Shown one piece after another: positions 8,739 to 57,587 of a DNA stretch of 64,000 bases (the stretch's first letter is position 1; each line of letters starts with the position of its first letter). The DNA comes from Enterococcus phage nattely. The notes beneath the pieces were generated by a model. The model made no database searches and was not told the DNA's origin. It saw only the letters and a program-made list of their open reading frames with translations. The DNA is taken from the sequence record MT119360.1. One strand, 5' to 3'. The position numbers were made by a program, and so were the translations under genes.

Positions 8739-8809
8739 TTTACAAATCGCAACTTATGTATTATAATAAATATATAATAAATAAACAAATAAAAAATAGA
8801 AAGTAGGAA
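8739..8809 (+). promoter_or_regulatory. Class-B promoter plus conserved leader: CTGTTTACA(8739-8744)-N17-TATAAT(8762-8767), then ATAAATATATAATAAATAAACAAA leader
   Basis: The same roughly 45-nt element recurs at least 9 times in the window. Confidence 0.55.
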
Positions 8810-8815
8810 ATGACA

Positions 8816-9031
8816 ATGGAAAACAAAAAACAAATGATGGAAAACAAAATTAACGAATTAAGAAAAGAAGCTGGTAAATTATATGAAGATTTAGATAAAG
8901 CTTTTGCAGCAAATGACATTAAATTATATGATGAAATTGGTGATGTTATGAGCGCAAAATACGAAGAATCTCGTAAATTAATCGTTGAATTTAATGCAAC
9001 ATTTGGTGAACCACCACATTTAAACTGGTAA
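8816..9031 (+). CDS. Small conserved protein, paralogue of 57588..57797
   Basis: MENKINELRKEAG...GDVMSAKYEE...EFNATFGE is roughly 55-60% identical to the ORF at 57588. Confidence 0.55.
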   Translation: MENKKQMMENKINELRKEAGKLYEDLDKAFAANDIKLYDEIGDVMSAKYEESRKLIVEFNATFGEPPHLNW

Positions 9032-9123
9032 AAAAATAGAGCCAACGGTTTACAAATCAGTAAATCGTTGGTATAATATAAATATAGATGATGATAATAA
9101 AAAAAAAGAAAGAAGAGATAATT

Positions 9124-9327
9124 ATGCTAACACTACTTATAATTTTGACAATTATTTTAAATTTTGTTCAACGTAATAATATTAAAAAATTAATTGAAAA
9201 AGATGATGCAGCTGCAAAAATGGAATTAGTTAAATTAGGACGCCGTGGATGTTTTATCACGAAAAAGAACAAGAATATGGTATTTAACTATTTAGCTGAA
9301 AAGAATTTAGAAGTAAATAACTTTTAA
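9124..9327 (+). CDS. Small membrane protein
   Basis: Hydrophobic N-terminus MLTLLIILTIILNF. ATG at 9124 after RBS AGAAGAG. Confidence 0.4.
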   Translation: MLTLLIILTIILNFVQRNNIKKLIEKDDAAAKMELVKLGRRGCFITKKNKNMVFNYLAEKNLEVNNF

Positions 9328-9345
9328 TTAGAAAGGGAAAATAAC

Positions 9346-9558
9346 ATGACAGAAAAGATGATTAATTGCGAATATGATGATAAATTTTTCATTAATAAAA
9401 GTATAAATTTAGGTGGAGAATATGTTGCTCAATTTCAAATGACAGAAAGTGATGGAAATTGTTATGTCGATCAAGTTAGCCTTAATAAGGAAGCATGTAT
9501 TGATTTAGTTAAATTTTTAAAAAAGGAAATGGAGATAAAAGATGAAGAATTGGTATGA
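9346..9558 (+). CDS. Hypothetical protein
   Basis: ORF with RBS AAGGGAAA. Confidence 0.5.
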   Translation: MTEKMINCEYDDKFFINKSINLGGEYVAQFQMTESDGNCYVDQVSLNKEACIDLVKFLKKEMEIKDEELV

Positions 9559-9952
9559 GGAAAATGATATTTTAATGTCTATTGAAAATAGTCAGAAATA
9601 TATTGTCGCAAAAGCTCCAGATGATGATAATAAATTTTATAAATTAATTCCTTTTAATAGTCGATCTGATTTGAGCAATAAAGAGATTATGCGTTCACAA
9701 TTGAAGATCATTGTTTTACCTAGAGTAGTCCATGGAGAAATGATCATGATTGGTAAAAATGATGATTATTGTCGTATCATTCCGGATCCTCTTAAAGTAA
9801 TTAATGAAAATGGTAAATTCATTCAATTGTCTGTAGATAGAGAAGTCCATGGAAAAATCGAAATAAAAATTGGAAAAGAACGTATCCATTTAGACGAAAA
9901 AGAACTCAATGATTTAATTGATGAAATTGAGGAAATAAAAAAATATCTATAA
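9542..9952 (+). CDS. Hypothetical protein
   Basis: ORF with RBS GGAGATAAAAG. Confidence 0.5.
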   Translation: MKNWYEENDILMSIENSQKYIVAKAPDDDNKFYKLIPFNSRSDLSNKEIMRSQLKIIVLPRVVHGEMIMIGKNDDYCRIIPDPLKVINENGKFIQLSVDREVHGKIEIKIGKERIHLDEKELNDLIDEIEEIKKYL

Positions 9953-9973
9953 AAAGTATTTTAATAAAATAGA

Positions 9974-10010
9974 CCATGGAGTTTACAAATATCCTCAAAT
10001 TTGATATAAT
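9974..10010 (+). promoter_or_regulatory. Promoter with CCATGGAG abutting the -35: CCATGGAG-TTTACA(9982-9987)-N17-TATAAT(10005-10010)
   Basis: Read directly. Same arrangement as at 11434-11472. Confidence 0.55.
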
Positions 10011-10048
10011 ATAAAAATAAACAATAGAAAGAAGAGATGTGTAAAATA

Positions 10049-10597
10049 ATGAATGTAGCAGTTTTTATGGGTTCAAGATTTGGAAAAAATAAAATGCACA
10101 AAATTAATGCTAAAAAATTAGGAAAAATTTTAGCATTAAATGATCATATGTTAATTTATGGTGGTTCTGTTTCAGGATTAATGGGAACAGTAGCAAAATC
10201 TGTTAAAAAATATGATGGAAAAGTAACTGGCGTTTATCCAAAAGGCCATTTTGAAGATGAGAAACCACTTTATGATATTGACTTTTTTATTGAAGTTGAC
10301 AATATGGATGATCGTAAGAGAAAATTGATTGATTTAGCGGATGCTTATGTAATTTTACCTGGCGGAACAGGTACACTTGAGGAATTCGCACAATTACTTT
10401 GTGAAATGATGATTAATATAACTCCATGGAGACCAATTTTTATCCTTAATGAAGATGGTTTCTACAATGGATTAGCTTCACAATTATATACTTTTATTCA
10501 CGAAGGCTTTAGTTATGAAAATGAAAAATTAGCTAAAAATATTTTCATTTGTGATACAGTTGATATTTTACAAGAAAAAATTGAGGGATTATCATGA
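10049..10597 (+). CDS. LOG-family protein (nucleotide 5'-monophosphate N-glycosidase/phosphoribohydrolase-like)
   Basis: YGGSVSGLMG ... ILPGGTGTLEE (PGGxGTxxE signature). Confidence 0.65.
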   Translation: MNVAVFMGSRFGKNKMHKINAKKLGKILALNDHMLIYGGSVSGLMGTVAKSVKKYDGKVTGVYPKGHFEDEKPLYDIDFFIEVDNMDDRKRKLIDLADAYVILPGGTGTLEEFAQLLCEMMINITPWRPIFILNEDGFYNGLASQLYTFIHEGFSYENEKLAKNIFICDTVDILQEKIEGLS

Positions 10598-10782
10598 AAC
10601 AAATTTTAAATGATAGAAAAATACATGTTGAAAGATCATTGTCATTTTTAACCAATATCATACAAATTTATAAAAATAAAGATGATAATGAATCAAAAGA
10701 AAAATTTAAAATTGTAAAATCTTTAATTAAATCATATCAAAAAGAATTAAAAGAAATTAATAGAAAACTGGAGGAAGATTAA
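10594..10782 (+). CDS. Hypothetical protein
   Basis: ORF overlapping the upstream stop by 4 nt. Confidence 0.4.
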   Translation: MKQILNDRKIHVERSLSFLTNIIQIYKNKDDNESKEKFKIVKSLIKSYQKELKEINRKLEED

Positions 10783-10783
10783 G

Positions 10784-11416
10784 TTGACATTATTAGAAAA
10801 AGGTCAAAAAGTTTTTGTAAAAAATAGTTTTAATGGTGGTAAAGAGAAAATTGGTCAAATTGTAGAAATTGATGATCAAGATTCAGAAATGCCATATTTT
10901 GTGCAATATAATGATGGAACAAAATATTGGGAATATGTAGACGAAGTTGAATTATACGATCCACGGCGGAACGTGTATTTAGCCGGACCATTCTTCAGCG
11001 AAAATCAAATTAATATTGTTAATGAACTCCATGGAGCATTAAATGAAAACAAAACTATTAAAAGTGTTTTTGTTCCAATGGAACACCAAATGAATGACGG
11101 AGAATTAGAAGAATTTACAGCTCCTTGGGCTCGAGCAGTTGCAATGAATGATTATGAAAATGTTCGAAATGCAGATATTGTAGTTGCAATTGTCGATTTT
11201 GATGGTCAAGATATGGATAGTGGAACTGCAGCAGAAATTGGATACGCATATGCTATTGGAAAACCAGTTTTCTTGTTTCATAAAGAAAACCACGAAATTA
11301 TGGTTAATTTAATGGTAACAGAGGTTGCTCAAGCATATTTCACAGAATTACAGCAAGTAAAAGATTATAACTTCACTTCTCAGGAAAAAGTTCCTTTCTC
11401 AGGAAATTATCGTTAA
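10784..11416 (+). CDS. Nucleoside 2-deoxyribosyltransferase family protein (NDT / DNPH1-like), with an N-terminal SH3/KOW-like domain
   Basis: YLAGPFF and DSGTAAEIGYAYAIGKPV signatures. TTG start after RBS GGAGGAAG. Confidence 0.6.
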   Translation: MTLLEKGQKVFVKNSFNGGKEKIGQIVEIDDQDSEMPYFVQYNDGTKYWEYVDEVELYDPRRNVYLAGPFFSENQINIVNELHGALNENKTIKSVFVPMEHQMNDGELEEFTAPWARAVAMNDYENVRNADIVVAIVDFDGQDMDSGTAAEIGYAYAIGKPVFLFHKENHEIMVNLMVTEVAQAYFTELQQVKDYNFTSQEKVPFSGNYR

Positions 11417-11433
11417 AAATTAAAAAATATTTG

Positions 11434-11472
11434 CTCCATGGAGTTTACAAAATTCCATGGAGTTGATATAAT
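11434..11472 (+). promoter_or_regulatory. Promoter with two CCATGGAG copies: CTCCATGGAG-TTTACA(11444-11449)-aaatTCCATGGAGttga-TATAAT(11467-11472)
   Basis: Read directly. One palindrome abuts the -35 and a second lies in the spacer. Confidence 0.55.
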
Positions 11473-11506
11473 ATAATTAAATAAATGATTGAAAGAGAGG
11501 AAACTA

Positions 11507-12343
11507 ATGTTGATTACAGCAGCTGGGAAAATTGGAGCTGGAAAAAGTACAATCACTAAATTATTATCAGATGTACTTGAAACAAAAGCAGTATATGAAC
11601 CAATTGAAGAAAATCCACTATTAGAAAAATTTTATGAAGATCGTGGAAAATATGGATTTGTATTTCAAATTGATATGATTAGTCGTCGATTTGAATTAAT
11701 TCAACAAGCACTAATGAAAGATAATTCAGTATTAGATCGTTCTATTTTAGAAGATTCAATTTTTCTTGATCAGTTACATTATGAAGGTTATGTAAATGAT
11801 TTTGAATGGGAAGCATATCATAAATTATTAGATAGAATGATGAAAGAATTAGCGTGTTTACCTAAAAAATTACCAGATTTATTAGTTTATATTGATGTTG
11901 ATTTTGAAACAGAAATTGAACATATTAATAAGCGAGCACGTGAATTTGAAAAAGTAAATAAAGGTGACGAATTATATGAATATTTCAAATTACATTCACA
12001 ATTTTATGATGAATGGATTGAAAATTTTGATTTAACACCTGTTATTAGAATTGATGCAAAACAATATGACTTTGCTAATAATAAAGAAGATCAACAAGAA
12101 GTTTTAGCTCAAATCGTGGCGAAATTAGTTGAAATTCGTGCACTAACATTTAATGAAGCAGTTTTAGCATATTGTAATATTTATGAAGCACAACCAAAAG
12201 ATGTAGCAATTAAATTGTATAATAAAGTGCAAACCCTAATGAATGGCATGCTTGAATACCATAATTTAGCTTTATTATATGATGAAAAATTAGATACAGT
12301 TGAAAAACTGAAAAAACGTATTAAAAACCAAAATAAAAAATAG
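11507..12343 (+). CDS. Deoxynucleoside kinase (dCK/dGK family)
   Basis: P-loop AAGKIGAGKST, YEPIEEN, and DRSILEDSIF (ERS-like) motifs. ATG at 11507 after RBS GAGAGGAAA. Confidence 0.75.
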   Translation: MLITAAGKIGAGKSTITKLLSDVLETKAVYEPIEENPLLEKFYEDRGKYGFVFQIDMISRRFELIQQALMKDNSVLDRSILEDSIFLDQLHYEGYVNDFEWEAYHKLLDRMMKELACLPKKLPDLLVYIDVDFETEIEHINKRAREFEKVNKGDELYEYFKLHSQFYDEWIENFDLTPVIRIDAKQYDFANNKEDQQEVLAQIVAKLVEIRALTFNEAVLAYCNIYEAQPKDVAIKLYNKVQTLMNGMLEYHNLALLYDEKLDTVEKLKKRIKNQNKK

Positions 12344-12364
12344 AAGAAAGTAGGAATTTATTTT

Positions 12365-13120
12365 ATGTTTGCAGCTTTAAAAGGAATTACGAAAAAAGAG
12401 ATTTTAGGAAATATTAAAGAATTATTCACATTACAATATTATAAAGAAGGATTAAGCGGCTGGATGCCAATCACAAAAATTGCATGGTTAATTGGTTTTG
12501 CGATTATCGTTGGTACAGGTGTTCCCCATGGATTCGCAATTACAAATATTATCTCGATTGTTTCAGGATTAATTGGATATACATGTGTTTTAGCAATTAC
12601 TAATGGTAAACGTATTAATGGTTTACTTGGTTTTATTTCAGCAGTTGGTATTGGTGGTATGGCAATTCATGCTGGTAACCCTGCAGATGCTGTTATGCAA
12701 TTAGCATATTTGTTAGCGTTGGATATTCCAGTAATTATCTTTGGTCACCGTTGGACTGCAGCTAAAATCAAAACTTTCGATTTTAATGCTCTAAAAATTA
12801 TTTTAGTAATTGGAATTATTGGTTTTGGATTAATGTACTCAATGGATGCATTTTGGTTACACACTCCACGGCCAATGTTGGATGCATTCGGTGCGACAAT
12901 CGGTTTCATTGGTTCTGGATTAATGTTAGCAAAATATTCAACACAATATTTCTTCTGGAATTTCCAAGGTATTATGAGTTTATTACTATGGGGTGTTACT
13001 GCATACCATGGAGATGCCAACTGGGTATTGTTCGCAACATACGCAATGTATTTAATGAATTCAATGATTGGAGCATTTCATTCTCCATGGGCTGAAGCTC
13101 GTAAAAATAAACATAAATAA
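12365..13120 (+). CDS. pnuC: PnuC-like nucleoside/nicotinamide riboside transporter (7-8 TM)
   Basis: Polytopic membrane protein of about 250 aa. Pattern ISIVSGLIGYTCVLAITNGKRINGL resembles the PnuC core. Lies in the nucleoside-salvage cluster. Confidence 0.45.
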   Translation: MFAALKGITKKEILGNIKELFTLQYYKEGLSGWMPITKIAWLIGFAIIVGTGVPHGFAITNIISIVSGLIGYTCVLAITNGKRINGLLGFISAVGIGGMAIHAGNPADAVMQLAYLLALDIPVIIFGHRWTAAKIKTFDFNALKIILVIGIIGFGLMYSMDAFWLHTPRPMLDAFGATIGFIGSGLMLAKYSTQYFFWNFQGIMSLLLWGVTAYHGDANWVLFATYAMYLMNSMIGAFHSPWAEARKNKHK

Positions 13121-13191
13121 AAAATATAATAATAAGAGAAAAATGTAAAACTCCACGTAATTGTGGAGTTTTTATTGAAAGGAAGAATATT

Positions 13192-13470
13192 ATGGAATTG
13201 AATGAGGGGTTAAGAGACGCGATCGTTTTATTTTTAAATAGTCAAAAATATATTAGTGAAATTGATTTAAATGAAGAAAGAACTGGAGAAAGCGTCATGG
13301 ATGTTATTCATTTTATCAATGGTTTAGGTGATGATGAAGTAGACTTAAGTGAAATGACAACAAATGGTTGGGAATGTGATATTTTTATTCCATTTGAATA
13401 TAATGGAAATAATTTCACGTTATATTTTGAATCTATGTATAATAAAATGAAATTATTTATGGAGGCTTAA
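13192..13470 (+). CDS. Small highly acidic protein (DNA-mimic candidate)
   Basis: About 25% D/E, no motifs. Confidence 0.45.
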   Translation: MELNEGLRDAIVLFLNSQKYISEIDLNEERTGESVMDVIHFINGLGDDEVDLSEMTTNGWECDIFIPFEYNGNNFTLYFESMYNKMKLFMEA

Positions 13471-13473
13471 TAT

Positions 13474-13722
13474 ATGGAAATTAATAGAATCGTGGTTTAT
13501 GGACGCACCAATTGTCCTCAATGTAAAATGACTTGTAAAGTGTTAGAAAAAGAAGGTATTGAATATCGATATATTAACATTGATGAAAATCAACCAGAAA
13601 GATTAAGATTAACACTTTTAGGTTTTCAAACAGTACCAGTTACACGCATTATTTTTGAAAATGGTGAACAAGATCAATATATCACTGGTTTTAGACCAAA
13701 TGAATTGAAAAAATTAAAATAA
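13474..13722 (+). CDS. nrdH: NrdH-like glutaredoxin
   Basis: CPQC redox motif at the N-terminus, thioredoxin-fold length (82 aa), VPV segment. Confidence 0.7.
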   Translation: MEINRIVVYGRTNCPQCKMTCKVLEKEGIEYRYINIDENQPERLRLTLLGFQTVPVTRIIFENGEQDQYITGFRPNELKKLK

Positions 13723-13812
13723 TTAACATGGGGCGTTTACATAACGTCTCTTTTTTGATATAATATAATTATAAAATTATTTCAAGAGAAAAGAAACGTA
13801 GGAGAGATTATA

Positions 13813-14850
13813 ATGGCAGGATACGCAGAAAACACAATGTTTTTTGGTCAAATTGATGGAAAAACATTGAATAGTTTGGGTAAATTAGATAGAAGTGTAA
13901 AAACATTAAAAGACAGATCAAAACAAGTAAATGACATTATTGATTCAACTAATTATTTTGTTGAATATTTATCAAAATATTATAAAGTAAGTATTAATGC
14001 AAATGAAGCAACTAGTGAAGACGTTGATATTTTTAAATATTTAGAAAGAATGGCAACATATTTGTTAAATAGTGATGAATCTATTGCTTTGGATAAAGCT
14101 GAACAAAAAACATATATTTTTCATAATCAAACAATGCAAAAATATTTAGATCGTGAAAAAATTAATGTAAATAACAGTAATGGACAAGAAAATATTGTTG
14201 ACTCCGAAAATGTGGTCCACGCTCTATTAGCAAAAAAACAAAACAGTCGAAAATTAAAAGTTCAAACAATTACAGTTGAGGATTTAAAACGTGACGACAA
14301 AGTTGGCGAAATTTTAAGAGAATATCAATTAATGCTCAATGCCATTGACAAAAAACTTAGTGAACCACAAGATAAAAAATGGGCAATATACACAAGACAA
14401 AAATATTTGGTTAAACAAGATATGGTTGATGCAAAAGATATGTTGCTCGGTGTATGGGGTTACAACACTAATTTTAAAGAATCACATATTCCAGATTTAG
14501 ACATTTTTGATTTTACAGACTTTAAAACAGTTAAATATTTACTAACATTTAATAAGCCAAATGTGTCAGAGAATGAAGACATGTGGTGTGTTTGGCAAGA
14601 CTTTATTGAAACAGTTAAAAAAGCTAATTTAACTCAAGAGGAATTGGAAATTTTTAAGTGTTTACAAGATGGGTGGAAATTACAAGAAATTAGTGATGAG
14701 TTTGGTATTAAATACCATGGACTTTACCAAACAACAATTCCAAGAATCGCTAAAAAGATTATGAAGGTTGGTAACAAATATGATTGTACTGATCCTAAAG
14801 TAAAAGAGAAAATTAATAATCGAAAAGAAAAAGCCAAATCACAAGAGTAG
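13813..14850 (+). CDS. Hypothetical protein with C-terminal sigma-70 region-4-like HTH (possible transcription regulator)
   Basis: The C-terminal LQDGWKLQEISDEFGIKYHGLYQTTIPRIAKKI resembles a sigma region 4 helix-turn-helix. Confidence 0.4.
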   Translation: MAGYAENTMFFGQIDGKTLNSLGKLDRSVKTLKDRSKQVNDIIDSTNYFVEYLSKYYKVSINANEATSEDVDIFKYLERMATYLLNSDESIALDKAEQKTYIFHNQTMQKYLDREKINVNNSNGQENIVDSENVVHALLAKKQNSRKLKVQTITVEDLKRDDKVGEILREYQLMLNAIDKKLSEPQDKKWAIYTRQKYLVKQDMVDAKDMLLGVWGYNTNFKESHIPDLDIFDFTDFKTVKYLLTFNKPNVSENEDMWCVWQDFIETVKKANLTQEELEIFKCLQDGWKLQEISDEFGIKYHGLYQTTIPRIAKKIMKVGNKYDCTDPKVKEKINNRKEKAKSQE

Positions 14851-14879
14851 TTTACAAAACTACTCTTTTTTGATATAAT
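14844..14879 (+). terminator. Fused terminator-promoter unit: AGAGTAG-TTTACAAAA-CTACTCT hairpin (loop is the -35), T-run, then TATAAT at 14874-14879
   Basis: The upstream stop codon sits in the stem. TTTACA is at 14851-14856 and the -10 lies exactly 17 nt downstream. Confidence 0.6.
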
Positions 14880-14909
14880 ATAATTATAAAATTGAAAGGA
14901 AATGGTTTC

Positions 14910-15764
14910 ATGAAATATAATGAATATATTAACGGTTCCGAATGGTTAGAAAAGAGTTCTAGATATTTAGAAATGTATCCAATTTGTGAATTATGTCACA
15001 AATTTCCGTCGACACAAGTTCACCATACTAGTTATGCAAGAATTGGTGAAGAATTACGTAAAGATTTAATGGGAGTTTGTGATCGTTGTCACACGCATTT
15101 GCATTTGTTACCACCAATGATTAAAGATGAAACACGCTTGAAAAAAGCAAATAAATTAATTCGTGATTTTATTAAATATCCTGAAATTAAAACAATCGCA
15201 TTAAATGAATTAATGTTAAAATATTATCCAGGTAAAATTTACATGAAAGAATTAGCAGAAGAAGCTTGTCCAGAAACAGCATTTTTCATGCAAAATGTTA
15301 TGGAAATTTTAGATGCAGATAGTAAAAATCTTAAAGTTGATTTAATTGAAGAATTAACACGTATCGTTTATATGCTAAAAGTTCAAGCGGCAAAAAATGC
15401 TAAAAAGAAAAAAGAAGATGAAAAAATTCGAAAAGAAAAATTTGAAAATGGTGAATTTGATTATCTTTATGATATTGCAGAACAAAGTAAAGCCGAAAAA
15501 GTGAAAGAAAGTACATTGGATGAAATTTTAGAAAATAGACGTAAAAATTTCTGTTTAAATGAATTAAGTTCAAAACCAATTTTGGGAGAAGCAATGCGTT
15601 GGGCAAATAATGAATATTTTAATGGTCAAATGTTCTTTAAGCGTTCCGGAATTGATACTCCAGCTAAATTTTATTTATGTTTATATGAAAAAGGTGCAGC
15701 TGAAGAATTATTCACACATTTAGGTGGTAAGCCAAAAGATTTAGTAGGTGAATTTAATGTTTAA
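14910..15764 (+). CDS. HNH endonuclease domain protein
   Basis: CELCHKF...HH...CDRCHTHLH gives the C-x2-C...H...C-x2-C-H HNH arrangement. ATG at 14910 after RBS GAAAGGAAA. Confidence 0.55.
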   Translation: MKYNEYINGSEWLEKSSRYLEMYPICELCHKFPSTQVHHTSYARIGEELRKDLMGVCDRCHTHLHLLPPMIKDETRLKKANKLIRDFIKYPEIKTIALNELMLKYYPGKIYMKELAEEACPETAFFMQNVMEILDADSKNLKVDLIEELTRIVYMLKVQAAKNAKKKKEDEKIRKEKFENGEFDYLYDIAEQSKAEKVKESTLDEILENRRKNFCLNELSSKPILGEAMRWANNEYFNGQMFFKRSGIDTPAKFYLCLYEKGAAEELFTHLGGKPKDLVGEFNV

Positions 15765-16551: not shown

Positions 16552-16650
16552 GTTTACAAATTTTAAAATAGTTGATATAATATAAATATAAATAATGATT
16601 AATGAAAATCATTAAAAAATATAAAAGAAAAAGAAAGTAGGAATTTAATT

Positions 16651-19756: not shown

Positions 19757-19763
19757 ATTCATA

Positions 19764-51742: not shown

Positions 51743-51826
51743 AATTTTGGGAAAAGTAGTTTACTTTTCCCCATTTTCTTGATATAATATAAACATAGAT
51801 ATTAATAGAAATGAGGAATATAAATT

Positions 51827-52039
51827 ATGTTGGACGTTTTAAATTATCAATCTAGATTAGCTATGATTAAACAACAAATGAATGCTAATATGGATATTAT
51901 TATTTTTTTAAGTTGTAAACAAACATTGGAAAAAGAAGAAATTGATGAGCTACAAAGTAGATTAAAAGCACATTATAGTTTGGCTCATAAATTTCAAGCT
52001 ATTGTTGAAAAACGTATTAAAATGGAGGAAGATAAATGA
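51827..52039 (+). CDS. Small protein between the two topoisomerase subunits
   Basis: RBS ATGAGGAATA. Promoter at 51760-51795. Confidence 0.45.
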   Translation: MLDVLNYQSRLAMIKQQMNANMDIIIFLSCKQTLEKEEIDELQSRLKAHYSLAHKFQAIVEKRIKMEEDK

Positions 52040-54024
52040 TTAATAAAGTTGGTTTAGGCGAACAATTAAACGATGCAATGATGGGAATGAGTGCATACAC
52101 TATTTTACAACGTGCAATCCCTGATTTTCGTGATGGTTTTAAACCAGTAAATAGACGTATTATTACATCAATGCTTTTAAATAAGACTTTTAATTTCACC
52201 AAAAGTGCAACAGTTGAAGGCCGCGTAATGCAATTGCATCCACATGGAGGATCATATGGTTCAATCGTTGGATTAGTTCAAAAAGATCGAAATAGTCTTC
52301 CATTTTTAACTGGAAAAGGAAGTTGGGGTCAATATACATCAAGTGACCAACAACCAGCTGCTGCTCGATACACTGAAGTAAAATTAGGTAAAAACGCACT
52401 TGAAGTAACAAAAGAGTTAAAAGAAAAAAGTGTTGATTATGTACCAAATTATGATGGCACAATTAATGTCCCCGAAGTTTTACCTGTGACATATCCATCA
52501 ATTTTAACTCAATCACAAAGTGGTATCGCAAATGGTTTTGCAACTTCTATTTTATCATATAATATTCATGAATTATATGATATGATTGATGATATTTTAA
52601 TGTTACGTGGAAGGACAAAACCAATTTATCCAGATTTTCCAACAGGTGCAACGATCATAAAAGATGATGAGGAAGCACTTAATGTAATTAGAACTGGGCG
52701 TGGTTCATTTACAATGAGAGCAAAAATTGAAATTGATAATAATAAATTAATTGTAACTGAAATTCCTTATGGTGTAAAACGTGAACAAATCATTAAAAAA
52801 ATTATTGAGTTGAATAAACGTGGAACACTAAAAGAAGTTACAGATGTTCGTGATGGTACGTCATTTAAAGGTATGAAAATTGTAATTACAGCTAAGAAAA
52901 ATACAGATATGAAAGAATTAATTGTAAAACTGTATAAGCTTACTCCACTTCAAGCGAAAGTTAGTGCTAATATGAACGTATTAATTGATGGTAGATTAGA
53001 AGTTTTAGGAGTAGAAGAATTATTATTAAATTGGATTAAATGGCGTGTATCTGTAATTAAACGTGGATTAAATAATAAATTAACAAACATGAAAAAAGAT
53101 TTACACATTTTAGAAGGTTTGCGTAAAATTGCTTCAGTTGATGAAGTTATTCGTATCGTTCGTTTCGAAGATGATGATAAAGTTGATCAATTGTTAATGG
53201 AAGCATTTAATTTAACAGAAGAACAAGCAGAATATATCGGTAAAATGACATTACGCTCATTAAATGAAAAACGTATCCAAAATAGATTAAAAGATATTGA
53301 AGATTTGGAAAGTAGAATTAAAGATTTAGAAGAAACAATTGATAATGATGGATTATTAAAAGTTATTTTGCAACGTCGTATGATGGAAACAATGAAAGAA
53401 ATTGATGCTCCAAAACGTAAAACTGAAATTATCACAATTGATGAAGAAAAAGAAAAAGAAGTTCATAAGATTGTAAAAGTAAAAGAAGTAGATAATGCTA
53501 AATATTTTGTGTGCTTCACCAAAAATGGATGGTTATTAAAAGGTAAAAATAAAAATGATATGGAATCACAATTAATTTTAGGTGATGAAATTGTTCAATA
53601 TTGGGAAGTACAAAATGATAAAAATATTGTTCTATTTATGAAAGATAAATCAGTTAGAAACATTAAAGTAAAACAAATTAAAGATAAAGAATTTGTTGGA
53701 AATGATGCTTTATTTGCTGAATGTAATGTTGATGAAAGTGCATTAGTTTTATTAGTCTTTGATGAAGGACATATCGTAAAAATTCCAATTGATGCATTTG
53801 TGAAAAATCGTCAAATTATGGAAAAAGGATATTTTGATGGTGAAAACTTAATTTACGTAAAACAATTAAATGGTGAAAAATTAATCAATATTTTCATTGG
53901 TGATAAACAAAAACCAAAAACAATTGAAGTTGAAACTATCAATATTAAAAAGAACCGTTTAGCGCGTGGTCAAAAACTATTTAATAATAAAAAATTAGAA
54001 AAAGTGAATGTCACTCTGGGTTAA
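52036..54024 (+). CDS. Type IIA DNA topoisomerase subunit A (GyrA/ParC/T4 gp52-like)
   Basis: DGFKPVNRRII motif and the active-site tyrosine region AARYTEVKL. Confidence 0.85.
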   Translation: MINKVGLGEQLNDAMMGMSAYTILQRAIPDFRDGFKPVNRRIITSMLLNKTFNFTKSATVEGRVMQLHPHGGSYGSIVGLVQKDRNSLPFLTGKGSWGQYTSSDQQPAAARYTEVKLGKNALEVTKELKEKSVDYVPNYDGTINVPEVLPVTYPSILTQSQSGIANGFATSILSYNIHELYDMIDDILMLRGRTKPIYPDFPTGATIIKDDEEALNVIRTGRGSFTMRAKIEIDNNKLIVTEIPYGVKREQIIKKIIELNKRGTLKEVTDVRDGTSFKGMKIVITAKKNTDMKELIVKLYKLTPLQAKVSANMNVLIDGRLEVLGVEELLLNWIKWRVSVIKRGLNNKLTNMKKDLHILEGLRKIASVDEVIRIVRFEDDDKVDQLLMEAFNLTEEQAEYIGKMTLRSLNEKRIQNRLKDIEDLESRIKDLEETIDNDGLLKVILQRRMMETMKEIDAPKRKTEIITIDEEKEKEVHKIVKVKEVDNAKYFVCFTKNGWLLKGKNKNDMESQLILGDEIVQYWEVQNDKNIVLFMKDKSVRNIKVKQIKDKEFVGNDALFAECNVDESALVLLVFDEGHIVKIPIDAFVKNRQIMEKGYFDGENLIYVKQLNGEKLINIFIGDKQKPKTIEVETINIKKNRLARGQKLFNNKKLEKVNVTLG

Positions 54025-54131
54025 CCAGGGTGCTCGTTCATTTTATAGTAATATAATTAATTGAATGAATTAATTAAGCATCATGTATAATTGTTAAAAT
54101 TGACAACATTATGATATAATTATTATAAGAA

Positions 54132-54148
54132 GATGATCAATGATCATC
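54132..54148. promoter_or_regulatory. 17-bp perfect palindrome GATGATCAaTGATCATC just downstream of an atypical promoter (operator candidate)
   Basis: Read directly. Promoter TTGTTA-N18-TATAAT immediately upstream. Confidence 0.5.
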
Positions 54149-54175
54149 AAAAAGGAAGAATGGAGATAGATATTT

Positions 54176-54337
54176 ATGGATAAAAATATCGAACCAAAAA
54201 GAGAAGTATTAGAAAATGGCGACATCAAAGTAAATGTTGGTGATAATCAAATTTTAGTTACTCATGTTTCCGATGAAATTCCTGTTGATCAAATTGTGAC
54301 AACTCAAACGACTAAAAATCATAATAGTGTTAATTAG
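54176..54337 (+). CDS. Small protein (53 aa)
   Basis: RBS AAAGGAAGAATGGAG. Not in the ORF track. Confidence 0.35.
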   Translation: MDKNIEPKREVLENGDIKVNVGDNQILVTHVSDEIPVDQIVTTQTTKNHNSVN

Positions 54338-54402
54338 AAGAAAAATAGTGTATAATAATAATATAGCCTTTGGGCTAACAAATATATTTGGAGAGTGATA
54401 TC

Positions 54403-54591
54403 ATGGTTCAAGTAGCAAAAGTAGCATATACTGGTGAAGAACAAGATTTACCATTAGATGTAACGGAGAAAAATTTATTCGCCGGCGCTGTAACAAAATC
54501 AACAGTTAAAGAAGCTATTGATGAAGCAGCAGCTTTGGATAAAAAAGAATTACACCCAACGACAACAACTACGACGACAGTTGGTGGTTAA
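54403..54591 (+). CDS. Small protein with a C-terminal poly-Thr tract
   Basis: ATG at 54403 after RBS GGAGAGTGA. Confidence 0.45.
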   Translation: MVQVAKVAYTGEEQDLPLDVTEKNLFAGAVTKSTVKEAIDEAAALDKKELHPTTTTTTTVGG

Positions 54592-54597
54592 TTTAAA

Positions 54598-54628
54598 AGA
54601 TAGGACTTCGGTCCTATTTTTTTTACAT
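54598..54628 (+). terminator. Rho-independent terminator (TAGGAC-ttcg-GTCCTA plus T8)
   Basis: Classic GNRA-like tetraloop hairpin with a T-run. Confidence 0.7.
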
Positions 54629-54745
54629 TAATATTACTAAAATTACATTGGTGAAATACTGTTTACTTCTATTAGTTAACATGATATAATATACCTATAA
54701 TCAATTAATGATTATAAAAAAATATAGAAAAGAGAGTGAATTATT

Positions 54746-55453
54746 TTGCTAAAAGGAACTATCACGAAAGGTACAATTTTATTATTAGCTACTGTTGGTT
54801 TATCCGGATTCGCATACCAATCGAACCAGGAGAATATTAAAGAACAACAGGAGAAGCAGCAAAAACTTGAAAAGGAATTCTTCGAATATCAGGCAAAACA
54901 AGATAAGAAAATGATCATTCGCAATCAAAAGCAAAAAGCTCAATTGGCGAAAATGTCTGTTGATTTTAAAAAGAAAATTGCAGAAGAAAAGAAAAAAATT
55001 GCCGAACAAAAACAAGCAGAATACGAAGCGACTTTAACTAGACAAGCTGAAGAAAAGCGGAAACAAGAAGAAGAATTTGCGGCTTGGCAAGCAGAAATTG
55101 CTCATCAAGAAAAAATTAAAAAAGAACAAGAAGCAGCAGCTCAAGCAGCTCAAATTGCACAACAAGAACAACAAGTTCAACAACAGGTTCAACAAACACA
55201 AATTCAGCAACAACAAGAACAAGCTCCTGCACAATCGAGTGATGCAAAAAGTCAAATTGCTATGATTGAAAGCACGAATAATTACAATGCGACTAATGGA
55301 AAATATATTGGTAAATATCAACTAGATGCAGCGTATTTAAATGGAGATCATTCTCCGGCAAATCAAGAAGCGACAGCAGACCGTTACGTGGCGGAACGTT
55401 ATGGATCATGGGAAGCAGCCCTGGCATTCCATCAAGCAAATGGTTGGTACTAA
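54746..55453 (+). CDS. Secreted/membrane-anchored coiled-coil protein with a C-terminal IsaA/SceD-type transglycosylase-like domain
   Basis: N-terminal TM/signal segment, Q/E/K-rich coiled coil, and C-terminal IAMIESTNNYNATNGKYIGKYQL...HQANGWY resembling ES-x-NY-x-A-x-G-KYQ-x-TW transglycosylase-like domains. TTG start. Confidence 0.5.
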   Translation: MLKGTITKGTILLLATVGLSGFAYQSNQENIKEQQEKQQKLEKEFFEYQAKQDKKMIIRNQKQKAQLAKMSVDFKKKIAEEKKKIAEQKQAEYEATLTRQAEEKRKQEEEFAAWQAEIAHQEKIKKEQEAAAQAAQIAQQEQQVQQQVQQTQIQQQQEQAPAQSSDAKSQIAMIESTNNYNATNGKYIGKYQLDAAYLNGDHSPANQEATADRYVAERYGSWEAALAFHQANGWY

Positions 55454-55581
55454 ATAAAAAATAAATTTTATTTAAAATAATTGTACTTTGTGAGCAAAAA
55501 CTGTTTACAGAGTACAATTTCTAATGTATAATAAATATATAATAAATAAACAAATAAAAAATAAAGAAAAGAGGAAATGAA

Positions 55582-55800
55582 ATGATTGAAACAACTCTAT
55601 TTATGACAGGTAAAGAAAATGAAGAACAGTTAGCAGATTTTAACAAAAAGAGAGCGTTAGCATTGAACTTAATGGGATATGTTATTATTAAAACACCGGA
55701 GTTCAACAAAATGCTTATCAGAAAAGGTTTAGAATTAACATCGGATAAAATGATTGAGTTTATAAATGAATATAAATTAGACTTAATTGAAGTAGCTTAA
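55582..55800 (+). CDS. Hypothetical small protein
   Basis: Class-B promoter/leader at 55498-55578. Confidence 0.5.
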   Translation: MIETTLFMTGKENEEQLADFNKKRALALNLMGYVIIKTPEFNKMLIRKGLELTSDKMIEFINEYKLDLIEVA

Positions 55801-55868
55801 AATAAAAAAATGTACACCTATATAAAAATATAGGTGTACATAAATAAAAATGAAAAGAGGAAAATAAG

Positions 55869-56279
55869 ATGGAATACACAATAAAAGACATTAAAGAAGG
55901 CATGAAATTAATTTGTACAAATGACGGTGATTGGACATTTTGGACGAAAGATAAAATATATGTTGTTAAAAAGACAGATAGTGGAACATTATATATTAAA
56001 AATGATGATGGTAAAATGCGTTTCGTAACTAATATAGTAACATATTTAAATAATAAAGGTGATAGACGCGTAGTTAGTTTAGAAGTTATGGACACAGAAG
56101 AAAATAAAATTATAAATAAAGAAGAAGAAAACATTAAAAAATTAGAAGTTAAATGTTTTACAAGTTTAGAAAATTTAAATGATTTTTTAGATTCTTTAAA
56201 ACCAGGTGAAAAAATTATTTCACATGCTATAGGGCAATTTAATTTTCATTATATTATTTATGAAAAAATAGTTGGTTAA
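55869..56279 (+). CDS. Hypothetical protein
   Basis: RBS AAAGAGGAAAATAAG. Confidence 0.5.
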   Translation: MEYTIKDIKEGMKLICTNDGDWTFWTKDKIYVVKKTDSGTLYIKNDDGKMRFVTNIVTYLNNKGDRRVVSLEVMDTEENKIINKEEENIKKLEVKCFTSLENLNDFLDSLKPGEKIISHAIGQFNFHYIIYEKIVG

Positions 56280-56362
56280 AATAAAAAAAAACTATTTACA
56301 ATATCTTTATTATATGATATAATTATTTATGTAAAACAAATAATAAATCGGAGGAATTTAAA

Positions 56363-56575
56363 ATGACATTAGAAAAATTATTAGAAGTAATGGAATATGG
56401 TAAAAGAGTAATGATCACTATTGGAGAAACAGGTGCCACTTCAGCTTGGATGCATAATGAACGTTCAAAAATGATTTTAAACTATAAAGAAAATAAAGAC
56501 CGTAATGTATTATCATTTACACCGTCTACAAACGGTATTGAAATTGTTTTAGAAGGTGATAAAGATGAAAATTAA
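56363..56575 (+). CDS. Hypothetical small protein
   Basis: Promoter at 56285-56325. RBS CGGAGGAAT. Confidence 0.5.
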   Translation: MTLEKLLEVMEYGKRVMITIGETGATSAWMHNERSKMILNYKENKDRNVLSFTPSTNGIEIVLEGDKDEN

Positions 56576-56969
56576 TAAATATTTCTTAAGTAGTGATAAC
56601 CCAGCAGAATATGCTGATGAATTACGTTCATTAAATAAGACAATGAAAGACGTAAGATTTGAAGATAACTTCAATTACCGTCATCCTTATGTTTTAATTG
56701 AAGTTAAAGATGACAAAAAGAAAAAGAATAATAATAAAAAAATTAAATATTTTGTTATTCTTCCAGGACTTCCTAATTCTAAAAAATATTTAATTAAAGA
56801 TCAATCTTCAGGCAATATCGAATTCGGCTCTAAAAATGGTATTATGGAAAATTTAAATAAAGGCCAAGTTCTTTTCACAATTGATGAAATTAATTTAATC
56901 GATCCATTATATTTAAACTTTAGAAAAATTGCATTTAATTTTAAAGGAGAAGAAATTGATTATGACTAA
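56556..56969 (+). CDS. Hypothetical protein
   Basis: ORF overlapping the neighbouring genes. Confidence 0.45.
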   Translation: MIKMKINKYFLSSDNPAEYADELRSLNKTMKDVRFEDNFNYRHPYVLIEVKDDKKKKNNNKKIKYFVILPGLPNSKKYLIKDQSSGNIEFGSKNGIMENLNKGQVLFTIDEINLIDPLYLNFRKIAFNFKGEEIDYD

Positions 56970-57168
56970 AAAAGATAAGTTAGAAAACACTATAATGATG
57001 TGTATTGATTTGGATACGGGGCAATATTTTAAAAGAGAAAATACAGAAATTAAAACTGGTGTTGTTGAAGATCTTATTATTGATTTAGAAAAAATGACTA
57101 GTCAAATGATCGATTTATGTAGACAATTGTGTGAAGAAGAGGAGCTAAAAAATGAAGGATTGGATTAA
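56962..57168 (+). CDS. Hypothetical small protein
   Basis: ATG after RBS AAGGAGAAG. Confidence 0.45.
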   Translation: MTKKDKLENTIMMCIDLDTGQYFKRENTEIKTGVVEDLIIDLEKMTSQMIDLCRQLCEEEELKNEGLD

Positions 57169-57388
57169 AGCTATATTTTTAGGAGTATTTCAAGTTATGT
57201 TATTTATAATTGTGCCAACAATATTCCTAGGATTAATGGCAGGTTTTATGTATTTATTTATTATTTATGCCCTTATTCCAATTAAAGAATATATGCCCAC
57301 AATTCTATTGTCCATTTTATCAATAGCTGTTTTCATTATTGTTCTATTATCTGTAGTTGATGCACATGATAGAATGAAAAATAACTAA
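57152..57388 (+). CDS. Small membrane protein (2 TM)
   Basis: Hydrophobic. Confidence 0.45.
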   Translation: MKDWIKAIFLGVFQVMLFIIVPTIFLGLMAGFMYLFIIYALIPIKEYMPTILLSILSIAVFIIVLLSVVDAHDRMKNN

Positions 57389-57587
57389 AAAATAATAAAA
57401 AAATGAGCATTTACTGTTTACAAATGCTCATTTTTGGTTTATAATATATTTATAGTTAATTAATAAATATTCTTCCATAAAGAAAAAAACTTTTAAAAAT
57501 ATTTTAAAAAACTATTTACAAATTACAAGTAATAATGTATAATAAATATATAATAAATAAACAAATAAAAGAAAAGAGGAAATTAAA

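What the first reader, a model, noticed from the sequence alone, without database searches (positions are those of the whole stretch)
8739..57585. Two promoter classes; class B carries a conserved roughly 45-nt leader dispersed at least 11 times
Class A is tgTTTACAaa-N-TTGATATAATATAAaTATAAA. Class B is aaaaCTGTTTACAAA-N-AATGTATAATAAATATATAATAAATAAACAAA(t/a)AAAA, found at about 8739, 22437, 29712, 29912, 41724, 47370, 47615, 55498 and 57507. A B2 variant GGTTTATAATATATTTATAGTTAAT(T)AATAAA lies at 36690, 47085 and 57440. Class B precedes almost only very small ORFs (43-115 aa) scattered over 50 kb, and it contains a second in-register TATATAAT that could act as a tandem promoter or as operator/leader sequence. 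This looks like a regulon of highly expressed early small genes, the kind in which host-takeover or anti-defence proteins are found, under distinct control from class A replication genes. A conserved ribosome-binding context GAAAGTAGGAA(T/A)TTA recurs at 8795, 12345, 16632, 18668, 22487, 28198, 29965 and 47678 and may be a shared translational-control site.
Basis: seen in the sequence. Interest (0 to 1): 0.55.

Follow-up and report, generated by a model that had tools for sequence, protein, structure and literature searches.

The report
Two early promoter classes, Enterococcus phage
This Enterococcus phage drives its early genes from two sharply distinct host-type promoter designs. One is a portable cassette with a doubled -10 box that sits in front of small orphan genes, shuts down sooner, and marks the places where related phages swap genes; it is a tidy but not revolutionary regulatory architecture.

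Summary
The window is a VPE25-like Enterococcus siphophage (Andrewesvirinae). It carries 31 exact TTTACA-N17-TATAAT sites, all on the + strand (0.14 expected).

- **Class A (26 sites):** extended -10 (TGaTATAAT) followed by ATAAATATAAA.
- **Class B (9 sites) and B2 (3 sites):** AAAAACTG-TTTACA, no TGn, then an invariant 22-nt block. The block holds a second TATAAT exactly 11 bp after the first, followed by AAATAAACAAA.

The block is under selection. Between this window and VPE25 it diverges 2.7%, against 18.6% for the spacer. It recurs in the sister genus Denvervirus.

Published VPE25 TPM data show both classes on at time 0. Class B units fall faster by 10 min and then plateau, while class A falls between 10 and 20 min. 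Class B genes are not more highly expressed, and none of their 11 first-gene proteins was detected by mass spectrometry.

The leaders are unstructured, and the genes are orphans of unknown function. Gene gain, loss and replacement between this phage and two relatives starts right at class B leaders, as with T4 PeSL cassettes.

The GAAAGTAGGAA ribosome-binding motif is real (8 copies) but is not specific to either class.

What the block does mechanistically (sigma-dependent pause element, operator, or leader) remains inferred.

The parts
8730..8789 (+). Class B cassette: A-tract+CTG, -35 8739-8744, -10 8762-8767, 22-nt block 8768-8789
22433..22492 (+). Class B cassette (degenerate block, second hexamer TATAAA). 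The -35 at 22442 lies inside a terminator hairpin.
29704..29763 (+). Class B cassette, -35 at 29713, inside a 21-bp-stem hairpin (dG -24)
29906..29965 (+). Class B cassette, -35 at 29915
41715..41774 (+). Class B cassette, -35 at 41724. A synteny break with VPE25 and with vB_EfaS_140 falls at 41779-41782, directly after the block.
47359..47418 (+). Class B cassette, -35 at 47368. Indel junctions with both relatives fall here.
47610..47669 (+). Class B cassette (degenerate: TTTACT, second hexamer CATGAT), -35 at 47619 inside a hairpin
55495..55554 (+). Class B cassette, -35 at 55504 inside a hairpin (dG -21). A gene-replacement junction lies at 55596.
57506..57565 (+). Class B cassette, -35 at 57515, 98 nt downstream of a B2 promoter. 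A synteny break with VPE25 lies at 57592.
36665..36724 (+). B2 cassette, -35 at 36674. Block is ATATTTATAGTTAATAAACAAA (second hexamer TATAGT).
47061..47120 (+). B2 cassette, -35 at 47070 in the loop of a terminator-like hairpin 47061-47086. The junction of the gene X insertion lies at 47114-47121.
57408..57467 (+). B2 cassette, -35 at 57417 inside a hairpin. No ORF lies before the next class B promoter.
1006..58081 (+). Class A promoters (TTTACA-N16/17-TGnTATAAT-ATAAATATAAA). The -35 hexamers start at 1006, 2896, 5810 (no TGn, a hybrid with the class B upstream half), 9049, 9982, 11444, 13736, 14851, 16553, 18618, 19792, 23081, 28141, 30561, 33494, 36966, 40891, 41563, 43629, 46419, 48049, 49591, 51760, 54662 (TGn plus a second TATAAT, a hybrid), 56295 and 58042.
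8810..9031 (+). First ORF of a class B unit (71-73 aa). It is a paralog of 57588-57797, and only 3 homologs were found in 5.8 billion proteins.
22507..22719 (+). First ORF of a class B unit (70 aa, phrog_27612, unknown function)
29777..29908 (+). First ORF of a class B unit (43 aa)
29978..30178 (+). First ORF of a class B unit (66 aa)
41791..42183 (+). Two small ORFs directly after the class B block. They are absent at this site in vB_EfaS_140 and in VPE25. The first resembles VPE25 orf_92, which lies at 55.6 kb in that genome.
47151..47342 (+). Gene X (63 aa), lying between B2 47070 and B 47368. Its 98%-identical ortholog sits behind class B at 58416 in VPE25.
47445..47594 (+). First ORF of class B unit 47368 (49 aa)
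47697..48044 (+). First ORF of class B unit 47619 (115 aa, phrog_22747, unknown function)
55582..56279 (+). Two ORFs after class B 55504 with no DNA counterpart in VPE25 or vB_EfaS_140 (a replaced segment)
57588..57797 (+). First ORF of class B unit 57515 (69 aa), a paralog of 8810-9031
36757..36945 (+). ORF behind B2 36674 (62 aa)
8799..8809 (+). GAAAGTAGGAA Shine-Dalgarno variant. Other copies start at 12346, 16633, 18668, 22491, 28199, 29967 and 47680 (each 11 nt).

Best explanation
Both classes are promoters for the host primary-sigma (sigma-A) RNA polymerase. They fire as soon as the DNA enters the cell, but they are built from different modules and are therefore regulated differently.

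Class A relies on -35 TTTACA plus an extended -10 (TGnTATAAT). It drives the replication and nucleotide-metabolism operons, which stay on through about 10 min.

Class B/B2 lacks the TGn. Instead it has an UP-like A-tract (AAAAACTG) abutting the -35. It also has a selected 22-bp initial-transcribed block whose core is a second consensus -10 hexamer one helical turn (11 bp) after the real one, followed by AAATAAACAAA. Class B units behave as immediate-early genes: they are present at time 0, drop about 8-fold by 10 min, and then hold at a low plateau.

I infer that the doubled -10 acts on DNA. It lies at about -1 to +5, the position of the sigma-dependent pause element of lambda PR'. It would re-capture sigma-A just after initiation, and the conserved block ends about where such a pause would occur (+16). 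This would make escape from class B promoters the regulated step. This part is inference, not shown.

Independently of that mechanism, the class B cassette is a portable expression platform. It comprises a terminator hairpin enclosing the -35, the promoter, and an unstructured A-rich leader. Small orphan genes are inserted, lost and exchanged directly behind it by recombination, as with PeSL cassettes of T4-type phages.
For: Shown:
- 31 exact TTTACA-N17-TATAAT sites, all in the sense orientation, versus 0.14 expected.
- TGn is present in 25/26 class A sites and 0/12 class B/B2 sites.
- Consensus and boundaries of each class are defined.
- Divergence between this window and VPE25: block 2.7%, -35 2.8%, -10 0%, spacer 18.6%. 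In class A the constraint ends 11 nt after the -10.
- Among paralogous copies, spacer identity is 0.48 and block identity is 0.90.
- The same architecture occurs in the Denvervirus phages 9183 and Planchet and in a metagenomic contig, with a genus-specific variant TATAAT-N5-TATAATCAATAAACAAA.
- In VPE25 at time 0, 93% of phage TPM comes from the + strand and both classes are expressed, so host polymerase reads both. The kinetic differences have p=0.012 (0 to 10 min) and p=0.0012 (10 to 20 min).
- A natural promoter-down allele exists. VPE25 29601 has TGTACA and a lost A-tract but an intact block. Its gene has TPM 85, against 1800-8000 for other class B genes, and is not expressed later either. 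So the -35/UP region is needed and the second TATAAT is not a promoter on its own.
- The sixth base of the hexamer at offset +5 is T in 11/12 B/B2 sites but in only 5/26 class A sites (usually TATAAA).
- The leaders fold with dG of about 0 and there is no Rfam match.
- Synteny breaks with VPE25 (41779, 47121, 47355/60, 55596, 57592) and with the 93-98%-identical vB_EfaS_140 (41782, 47401-47459, 55596) fall at class B/B2 leaders. Gene X and an orf_92-like gene occupy different class B sites in different phages.
- Hairpin terminators enclose the -35.

From the literature:
- In lambda PR' the -10-like element lies at +1 to +6 and the pause occurs at about 16 nt (PMC4604602).
- PeSL properties are described in PMC2839356 and PMC4122927.
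Against: - No transcription start sites are mapped, so the position of the second hexamer relative to +1 is assumed (start 6-8 nt after the -10).
- The expression data come from the relative VPE25, not this phage. They are relative TPM at four time points, with small n (22 versus 10 units), and gene length is confounded with class. The 0-to-10 min difference loses significance when length is a covariate (p=0.13). The 10-to-20 min difference keeps it (p=0.024).
- Some TGn promoters also fall fast: VPE25 8987, and the two promoters with palindromes at the -10.
- Class B genes are neither more abundant as RNA nor detected as protein.
- No candidate trans-acting factor was identified.
- Sigma-dependent pausing has been characterised in E. 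coli (per the literature read), not in Enterococcus.
Confidence: 0.6

Rival explanations
1. The 22-bp block is an operator. A phage early protein (or a host protein) binds the tandem 11-bp repeat TATAATAAATA-TATAATAAATA-AACAAA, which overlaps the start site, and represses class B a few minutes after infection.
For: - The block shows sharp conservation boundaries.
- It contains a direct repeat with one-turn periodicity.
- Genus-specific variants are shared by all copies within a genome, as expected if the block co-evolves with a trans-acting factor.
- Class B falls fast between 0 and 10 min.
Against: - No DNA-binding protein was identified. The early ORFs tested have no family hits.
- After the early drop, class B stays flat while class A keeps falling. 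A simple repressor does not predict this.
Confidence: 0.2
2. The conserved sequence works in the RNA. It forms an unstructured A/U-rich 5' end (AUAAUAAAUAAACAAA...) that sets mRNA stability or boosts translation initiation of small genes.
For: - The leaders are 28-43 nt long and 19% GC, with predicted dG of about 0.
- The block would form the first ~16 nt of every class B mRNA.
Against: - The products of all 11 first genes are missing from the proteomics table, and RNA levels are ordinary.
- The most conserved feature is a perfect -10 hexamer in register with the promoter, which is a DNA-level signature.
- Any A-rich sequence would be unstructured, so invariance is not explained.
Confidence: 0.15
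3. There is no functional distinction between the classes. Class B is a family of promoter cassettes spread and homogenised by recombination or duplication together with mobile orphan genes. The expression differences reflect gene length or position.
For: - Cassettes coincide with gene-exchange junctions, and one cassette plus its gene is duplicated (8810 and 57588).
- The 0-to-10 min difference weakens when gene length is included.
Against: - Gene conversion would also homogenise the 17-nt spacer, yet it is near random (0.48) between invariant islands.
- The architecture is kept in a second genus with about 72-76% DNA identity in thymidylate synthase, the one gene compared.
- The TGn dichotomy is absolute.
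- The 10-to-20 min difference survives the length covariate.
Confidence: 0.12
4. The block is a second, overlapping promoter read by one of the two phage-encoded sigma-like proteins. This would explain why class B persists from 10 to 20 min.
For: - The phage encodes sigma-like proteins: 13813-14850 matches phrog_5767 'sigma factor' (E=7e-45), and 48107-48757 is a sub-threshold sigma70-ECF match.
- Class B stays flat from 10 to 20 min.
Against: - VPE25 orf_46 has an intact block but a damaged -35/UP region. It is almost silent at all times (TPM 85, 64, 6, 2).
- Late operons carry a different motif (ACTTATATATAATATA, no -35).
- The box AATAAACAAA never occurs on the late strand.
Confidence: 0.06

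Closest known systems
PeSL (promoter-early stem-loop) cassettes of T4-type phages (Arbiol et al. 2010, PMC2839356; Comeau et al. 2014, PMC4122927)
   Same: - Both are composite terminator hairpins plus consensus host-sigma early promoters with an AT-rich stretch upstream of the -35.
- Both are repeated many times, flank small orphan genes in plastic regions, and mark indel and replacement junctions between close relatives.
   Different: - There is no sequence homology. The host is Gram-positive and the phage is a siphovirus.
- Here the -35 lies inside the hairpin (loop or 3' arm) and the T-run forms the promoter spacer.
- The stems are not GGGG...CCCC.
- Class B adds a 22-bp invariant initial-transcribed block with a second -10.
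- Mini-circle formation was not tested.
Sigma-70-dependent promoter-proximal pause element of lambdoid late promoters (lambda PR'; PMC4604602, PMC4005639)
   Same: A -10-like hexamer lies immediately downstream of the start site (+1 to +6 in lambda; about -1 to +5 here). The sequence is conserved up to about +16, where lambda pauses.
   Different: - Here the element sits on early promoters, not late ones.
- No Q-like antiterminator or Q-binding element is evident, because the spacer is variable.
- Pausing was not demonstrated.
- The host sigma is the enterococcal sigma-A.
Early-promoter families of virulent phages with conservation beyond the hexamers: T5 PN25-type promoters, and the SPO1 host-takeover module promoters in front of many small genes (own knowledge: Gentz and Bujard 1985; Stewart et al. 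1998)
   Same: - Many near-identical strong-consensus host-type promoters, with conserved A/T-rich upstream and initial-transcribed regions.
- They are paired with strong ribosome-binding sites in front of small early genes of unknown function.
   Different: - The class B sites are dispersed over 50 kb rather than clustered in a terminal module.
- VPE25 data do not show exceptional strength.
- The -35 is always TTTACA, never TTGACA.
- To my knowledge the doubled -10 is not a described feature of those families.
Extended -10 (TGn) versus UP-element/-35-dependent promoter modules, and phage factors that discriminate between them, such as T4 AsiA and Staphylococcus phage G1 gp67 (own knowledge)
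   Same: Class A has TGn. Class B has an A-tract close to the proximal UP subsite consensus and no TGn. Factors of this kind exploit exactly this modular difference to switch promoter sets.
   Different: No AsiA or gp67 homolog was searched for or found. The link to timing is correlative.

Membership tests
Primary-sigma (sigma-70/sigma-A) promoter | -35-like and -10 hexamers with 17 +/- 1 bp spacing, in the sense orientation upstream of genes | tested here: met
   31 exact TTTACA-N17-TATAAT sites, all on the + strand, versus 0.14 expected. They are the top-scoring sites of the independent scan. They lie 28-70 nt before start codons.
Primary-sigma (sigma-70/sigma-A) promoter | Active before any phage protein is made | tested here: met
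   Orthologous VPE25 genes of both classes have thousands of TPM at 0 min, when 93% of phage TPM comes from the early strand. This is by orthology, not measured in this phage.
Primary-sigma (sigma-70/sigma-A) promoter | Mapped transcription start 6-8 nt after the -10 | not testable with these tools
   No 5'-end data are available.
Extended -10 promoter | TG at -15/-14 (TGnTATAAT) | tested here: met
   Class A: 25/26 sites. Class B/B2: 0/12, so class B is not a member.
PeSL-type mobile regulatory cassette | Consensus early promoter with an AT-rich upstream region | tested here: met
   Class B consensus is AAAaACTg-TTTACA...TATAAT.
PeSL-type mobile regulatory cassette | Adjacent stable stem-loop acting as terminator | tested here: inconclusive
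   Strong hairpins followed by a T-run are found at 4 of 9 class B sites and 2 of 3 B2 sites, and at many class A sites. The other five class B sites have weak or no hairpins. Termination activity was not measured.
PeSL-type mobile regulatory cassette | Preferential association with orphan genes, and with indel or replacement junctions between close relatives | tested here: met
   No family or only unknown-function PHROGs. Three homologs in 5.8 billion proteins. Junctions fall at 41779/82, 47114-47121, 47355-47459, 55596 and 57592 against two relatives.
PeSL-type mobile regulatory cassette | Sequence relatedness to T4-type PeSLs (polyG/polyC stems) and formation of excised mini-circles | tested here: not met
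   Stems are A/T-rich and unique to each site. Mini-circles are not testable. This is therefore an analogue, not a member.
Sigma-dependent promoter-proximal pause element (lambda PR' type) | -10-like hexamer with A2 and T6 in the first ~6 transcribed bases | tested here: inconclusive
   A perfect TATAAT lies 5 bp after the -10 in 7/9 class B sites, and TATAGT in 3/3 B2 sites. Its position relative to +1 rests on an assumed start site.
Sigma-dependent promoter-proximal pause element (lambda PR' type) | Paused ~16-nt nascent RNA; dependence on sigma region 2; a factor loaded at the pause | not testable with these tools
   This needs in vitro transcription or nascent-RNA mapping.
Structured RNA leader / riboswitch / known RNA family | Conserved secondary structure or a match to an Rfam model | tested here: not met
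   0 Rfam hits at gathering thresholds in the whole window. Leader MFE is 0 to -2.9 kcal/mol.

The most novel reading that the evidence does not exclude
The class B cassette may be a dual-purpose element not described for phages of Gram-positive bacteria. On this reading it is a portable gene-capture platform. Its doubled -10 is a sigma-A-dependent promoter-proximal checkpoint, a lambda-PR'-like pause placed on immediate-early promoters. A phage factor, or competition from the two phage sigmas, would act through that checkpoint to time a whole set of orphan genes.
Probability: 0.2. Interest if true: 0.65.

Novelty: new variant of a known kind. Interest (0 to 1): 0.42.

Why it matters
VPE25-type phages are the main model for enterococcal phage-host studies and are candidates for therapy, yet no promoter map of this group turned up in the searched library. 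The two classes give three practical things:

- A sequence rule to predict immediate-early versus early transcription units.
- Compact, insulated terminator-promoter-leader parts for engineering.
- Markers for the places where these phages acquire and exchange orphan genes, which are the likely host-interaction genes.

The doubled -10 offers a clean, easily mutated test of whether sigma-dependent promoter-proximal pausing is used as a timing device outside the lambdoid late promoters and outside Proteobacteria.

Tried and rejected
- **Chatterjee 2020 z-score table.** Replicates disagree for early genes, so it is too noisy. I used the TPM re-analysis instead.
- **'Highly expressed regulon'.** Rejected on TPM and proteomics.
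- **RNA structure or known RNA family in the leader.** None found. There are also no tRNAs in the window.
- **Block as a late or phage-sigma promoter.** Rejected. Late operons carry a different motif, and the silent VPE25 orf_46 has an intact block.
- **Block as an independent second sigma-A promoter.** There is no -35-like hexamer 17 bp upstream of the second TATAAT, because that position falls in the variable spacer. The same orf_46 argument applies.
- **Recent duplication artefact.** Rejected on spacer divergence and cross-genus conservation.
- **Function of class B proteins.** Pfam, PHROGs and NCBIfam gave nothing above threshold. One deep homology search found only 3 relatives.
- **Distribution of the leader.** The exact leader and a degenerate version were sought in IMG/VR. 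Matches came only from three contigs of this phage group.
- **Literature.** Searches for promoter descriptions of this phage group found none.
- **Loose box search (AATAAACAA with 1 mismatch).** It was too permissive in this AT-rich DNA and was dropped.
- **TGn alone as the explanation for timing.** Not clean: VPE25 8987 and the two promoters with palindromes at the -10 have TGn but decline fast.

Full report
**What the window is.**
The window is about 28% GC. All genes lie on the + strand up to about 58.8 kb, and the late genes then run on the - strand. A 4-kb probe is 97.7% identical to Enterococcus phage vB_EfaS_140 and about 88% identical to VPE25, VFW, vipetofem and vB_EfKM29. The Denvervirus phages 9183, Planchet and TJE4 match at 72-76% only in thymidylate synthase. 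All belong to the subfamily Andrewesvirinae. VPE25 is collinear with the window, which lets its published expression data be transferred by orthology.

**Checking the observation.**
- Exact TTTACA-N17-TATAAT occurs 31 times, all on the + strand, against 0.14 expected. The canonical TTGACA is never used in this context in any of the four genomes examined.
- The independent consensus scan ranks the same sites top. It marks 'TG before -10' as yes for the class A sites in its range (40-59 kb) and no for the class B/B2 sites there.
- Class B -35 hexamers start at 8739, 22442, 29713, 29915, 41724, 47368, 47619, 55504 and 57515. B2 hexamers start at 36674, 47070 and 57417. About 26 class A sites run from 1006 to 58042.
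- Aligned on the -10, class B reads AAAaACTg-TTTACA-N17-TATAAT-AAATATATAATAAAtAAACAAA. Class A reads g-TTTACA-N14-TGA-TATAAT-ATAAatATaaA.
- TGn is present in 25/26 class A sites and 0/12 B/B2 sites (Fisher p=5e-9).
- The class B block is a tandem 11-bp unit (TATAATAAATA twice) followed by AACAAA, so a second perfect TATAAT lies exactly one helical turn after the first. TATAAT-N5-TATAAT occurs 9 times against 0.19 expected, and 7 of these are class B.
- B2 keeps a -10-like TATAGT at the same offset. Site 36674 also keeps AATAAACAAA.
- In class A the hexamer at that offset is usually TATAAA. The sixth base is T in 11/12 B/B2 sites and in 5/26 class A sites.
It is 22 nt after the -10, after which only A-richness and the Shine-Dalgarno sequence recur.

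**Is it selected, or a recent copy?**
- Among the nine paralogous copies, pairwise identity is 1.0 for the -10, 0.96 for the -35, 0.90 for the block and 0.74 for the A-tract+CTG. It is only 0.48 in the 17-nt spacer and 0.48 after the block, against 0.37 expected from composition.
- Between orthologous cassettes of the window and VPE25, divergence is 0% (-10), 2.8% (-35), 2.7% (block), 18.6% (spacer) and 13% (upstream 9 nt).
- In class A the constraint covers only the first 11 nt after the -10 (3.7%). The next 11 nt diverge by 12.4%.
- The same two-class design exists in Denvervirus. Phages 9183 and Planchet and a metagenomic 89.5-kb contig each carry four or five sites of the form aaaaTTG-TTTACA-N17(no TGn)-TATAAT-N5-TATAAT(A/C)AATAAACAAA.
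- The exact or degenerate leader was found in IMG/VR only in this phage group.
- The block is therefore an old, constrained element and not a duplication artefact.

**Expression evidence (VPE25 orthologs).**
- The z-scores of Chatterjee et al. 2020 (PMC7064774) are too noisy for early genes.
- A later re-analysis gives mean TPM per phage gene at 0, 10, 20 and 40 min (PMC11100838 supplement).
- I assigned each + strand gene to its nearest upstream promoter in VPE25.
- At 0 min the early strand holds 93% of phage TPM and both classes are expressed. Both are therefore read by unmodified host polymerase.
- First genes of class B/B2 units (n=10) are not more abundant than class A first genes (n=22) at 0 min. 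For class B alone (n=9) the median log2 TPM is 11.5 versus 12.5 (p=0.13); with B2 included, p=0.34.
- From 0 to 10 min, B/B2 falls more: median log2 ratio -2.9 versus -1.4 (p=0.012).
- From 10 to 20 min, B/B2 is nearly flat (-0.4) while class A falls about 4-fold (-1.9) (p=0.0012).
- With log gene length as covariate, the 10-to-20 min effect remains (p=0.024) and the 0-to-10 min effect does not (p=0.13).
- None of the 11 class B/B2 first-gene products appears in the table of 93 detected phage proteins. Small size may explain this, but it gives no support to 'highly expressed'.
- Natural variants are informative:
  - VPE25 29601 has TGTACA and a lost A-tract but a perfect block. Its gene is almost silent at all times (TPM 85, 64, 6, 2).
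  - The hybrid at window 5810 (VPE25 5765) has the class B upstream half, no TGn and a class A downstream sequence. It drops like B from 0 to 10 min and like A from 10 to 20 min.
  - The hybrid at 54662 (VPE25 53837) has TGn plus a second TATAAT. It is flatter than typical class A from 10 to 20 min.
  - These are single cases.

**What lies behind class B.**
- First ORFs are 43-115 aa, although some units continue into ORFs of up to 181 aa.
- Pfam, PHROGs and NCBIfam give no function.
- The 8810 protein has only three relatives among 5.8 billion proteins, and it has a paralog behind class B at 57588.
- The leaders are 28-43 nt long and 19% GC, and they are predicted to be unstructured. No Rfam family matches anywhere in the window.

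**Cassettes as joints of gene turnover.**
- Many promoters of both classes lie inside terminator-like hairpins. The -35 sits in the loop or 3' arm and the T-run forms the spacer. An example is 29713, with a 21-bp stem and dG of -24. Terminator-like sites number 16 against 4.1 expected between 40 and 59 kb.
- Synteny with VPE25 breaks at 41779, 47114-47121, 47355-47360, 55596, 56325, 57592 and 58060. All of these lie inside promoter cassettes, and five lie at class B/B2 leaders.
- Gene X (47151-47342) lies between B2 and B in the window but behind class B at 58416 in VPE25.
- The gene after class B 41724 resembles VPE25 orf_92, which lies at 55.6 kb.
- The comparison with the much closer vB_EfaS_140 repeats the pattern:
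  - A two-ORF, 400-bp insertion lies directly after the block at 41782.
  - A leader-bounded indel lies at 47401-47459.
  - A replacement starts at 55596.
  - One replacement starts in the leader of class A 19792.
- This is the behaviour described for PeSL cassettes of T4-type phages (PMC2839356, PMC4122927).

**The ribosome-binding motif.**
GAAAGTAGGAA occurs 8 times on the + strand, always 7-10 nt before a start codon. It lies behind class A promoters (16633, 18668, 28199), behind class B promoters (8799, 22491, 29967, 47680) and on an internal operon gene (12346). Related variants are also common: GAAAGAGG (10 copies), GAAAAGAGG (5) and GAAATGAGG (4). The perfect GAAAGGAGG never occurs. The motif is a preferred imperfect Shine-Dalgarno sequence, not a class-specific control site.

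**Mechanism.**
- *Shown:* there are two host-type promoter architectures, the 22-bp block is under selection, the two classes have different kinetics in a close relative, and the -35/UP half is needed for class B activity.
- *Inferred:* the block acts on DNA. If transcription starts 6-8 nt after the first -10, the second TATAAT occupies about -1 to +5 and the block ends near +16. In lambda PR' a -10-like element at +1 to +6 re-binds sigma-70 and pauses polymerase at about 16 nt (PMC4604602). By analogy, escape from class B promoters would be the controlled step.
- The modular contrast (UP-like A-tract without TGn, versus TGn) is the kind of difference that sigma- or alpha-targeting phage factors exploit (own knowledge).
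- *Rivals:* an operator for an unidentified protein, an RNA-level leader function, no functional distinction, and a phage-sigma promoter. The last is disfavoured by the silent orf_46 and by the different late motif ACTTATATATAATATA.

**Novelty and limits.**
No description of promoters for this phage group was found in the searched library. The finding is a new variant of known kinds: phage early-promoter families and PeSL-like cassettes, with an added in-register second -10. The main limits are that no start sites are mapped, expression is borrowed from VPE25, there are four time points of relative TPM, n is small, and no trans-acting factor is known.

Noticed in passing
window, whole + strand (also VPE25, 9183, Planchet): The -35 hexamer is TTTACA (33 times) or TTTACT (7 times) before TATAAT. 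The canonical TTGACA is never used in that context (0 times) in any of four genomes from two genera.
   Followed up: partly
window 48049-48090 and 58042-58085; VPE25 47582 and 58860: Two TGn promoters have the -10 embedded in a perfect 12-13-bp palindrome: CTACTGTGGATAT/ATATCCACAGTAG before the sigma-like gene, and CTCACTATGATA/TATCATAGTGAG at the second site. The arm sequences differ between sites and phages, but the palindromic character is kept. Their VPE25 genes fall very fast after 0 min (TPM 51,287 to 967 for SCO93483).
   Followed up: partly
window 13813-14850 and 48107-48757: There are two phage-encoded sigma-like proteins. The first matches phrog_5767 'sigma factor' (E=7e-45). The second is a sub-threshold full-length match to sigma70-ECF (E=1e-6) with a C-terminal HTH. 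They are annotated as sigma factors in phage 9183.
   Followed up: partly
window 54020-54600 (ORFs 54176-54337 and 54388-54591): The VPE25 orthologs (SCO93466/67) are the only + strand genes that peak at 20 min (84,036 TPM), so they form a middle class. The upstream DNA has TG-TATAAT-like boxes without a TTTACA -35.
   Followed up: no
window 5639-5800: The VPE25 ortholog of the 40-aa ORF (SCO93384) reaches 78,445 TPM at 10 min, the highest non-structural value. It lies just before a strong terminator hairpin (about 5766-5792). It may be a stable RNA or 3' fragment rather than a gene.
   Followed up: no
VPE25 (L008) rc of 74405-74529 and 85095-85375: Late operons are preceded by a shared motif, ACTTATATATAATATA, with no -35. 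This is a candidate late promoter for the phage sigma. It lies outside the window, and no good copy occurs in the window.
   Followed up: partly
window 1-1000: This is a non-coding, repeat-rich stretch. It has iterated about-25-nt units (TATAGNNGATAT...TATATA), twin TTTTGCGAAGCAAAA palindromes at 770 and 800, and several inverted repeats. It could be a genome end, an origin or a packaging region.
   Followed up: partly
window, all gene starts: The perfect Shine-Dalgarno sequence GAAAGGAGG is never used. Genes use GAAAG-N-AGG variants with a central mismatch or bulge.
   Followed up: partly
window 31132-33490: Thymidylate synthase (annotated thymidylate synthase/pyrimidine hydroxymethylase in Planchet), dUTPase and a beta-glucosyltransferase sit in one class A operon. 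Together they hint at hypermodified (glucosylated hydroxymethyl-pyrimidine) DNA.
   Followed up: no
window 58884-59861 (- strand): A tyrosine recombinase/integrase-family gene is present in an apparently strictly lytic phage. It is annotated in VPE25, 9183 and Planchet.
   Followed up: no
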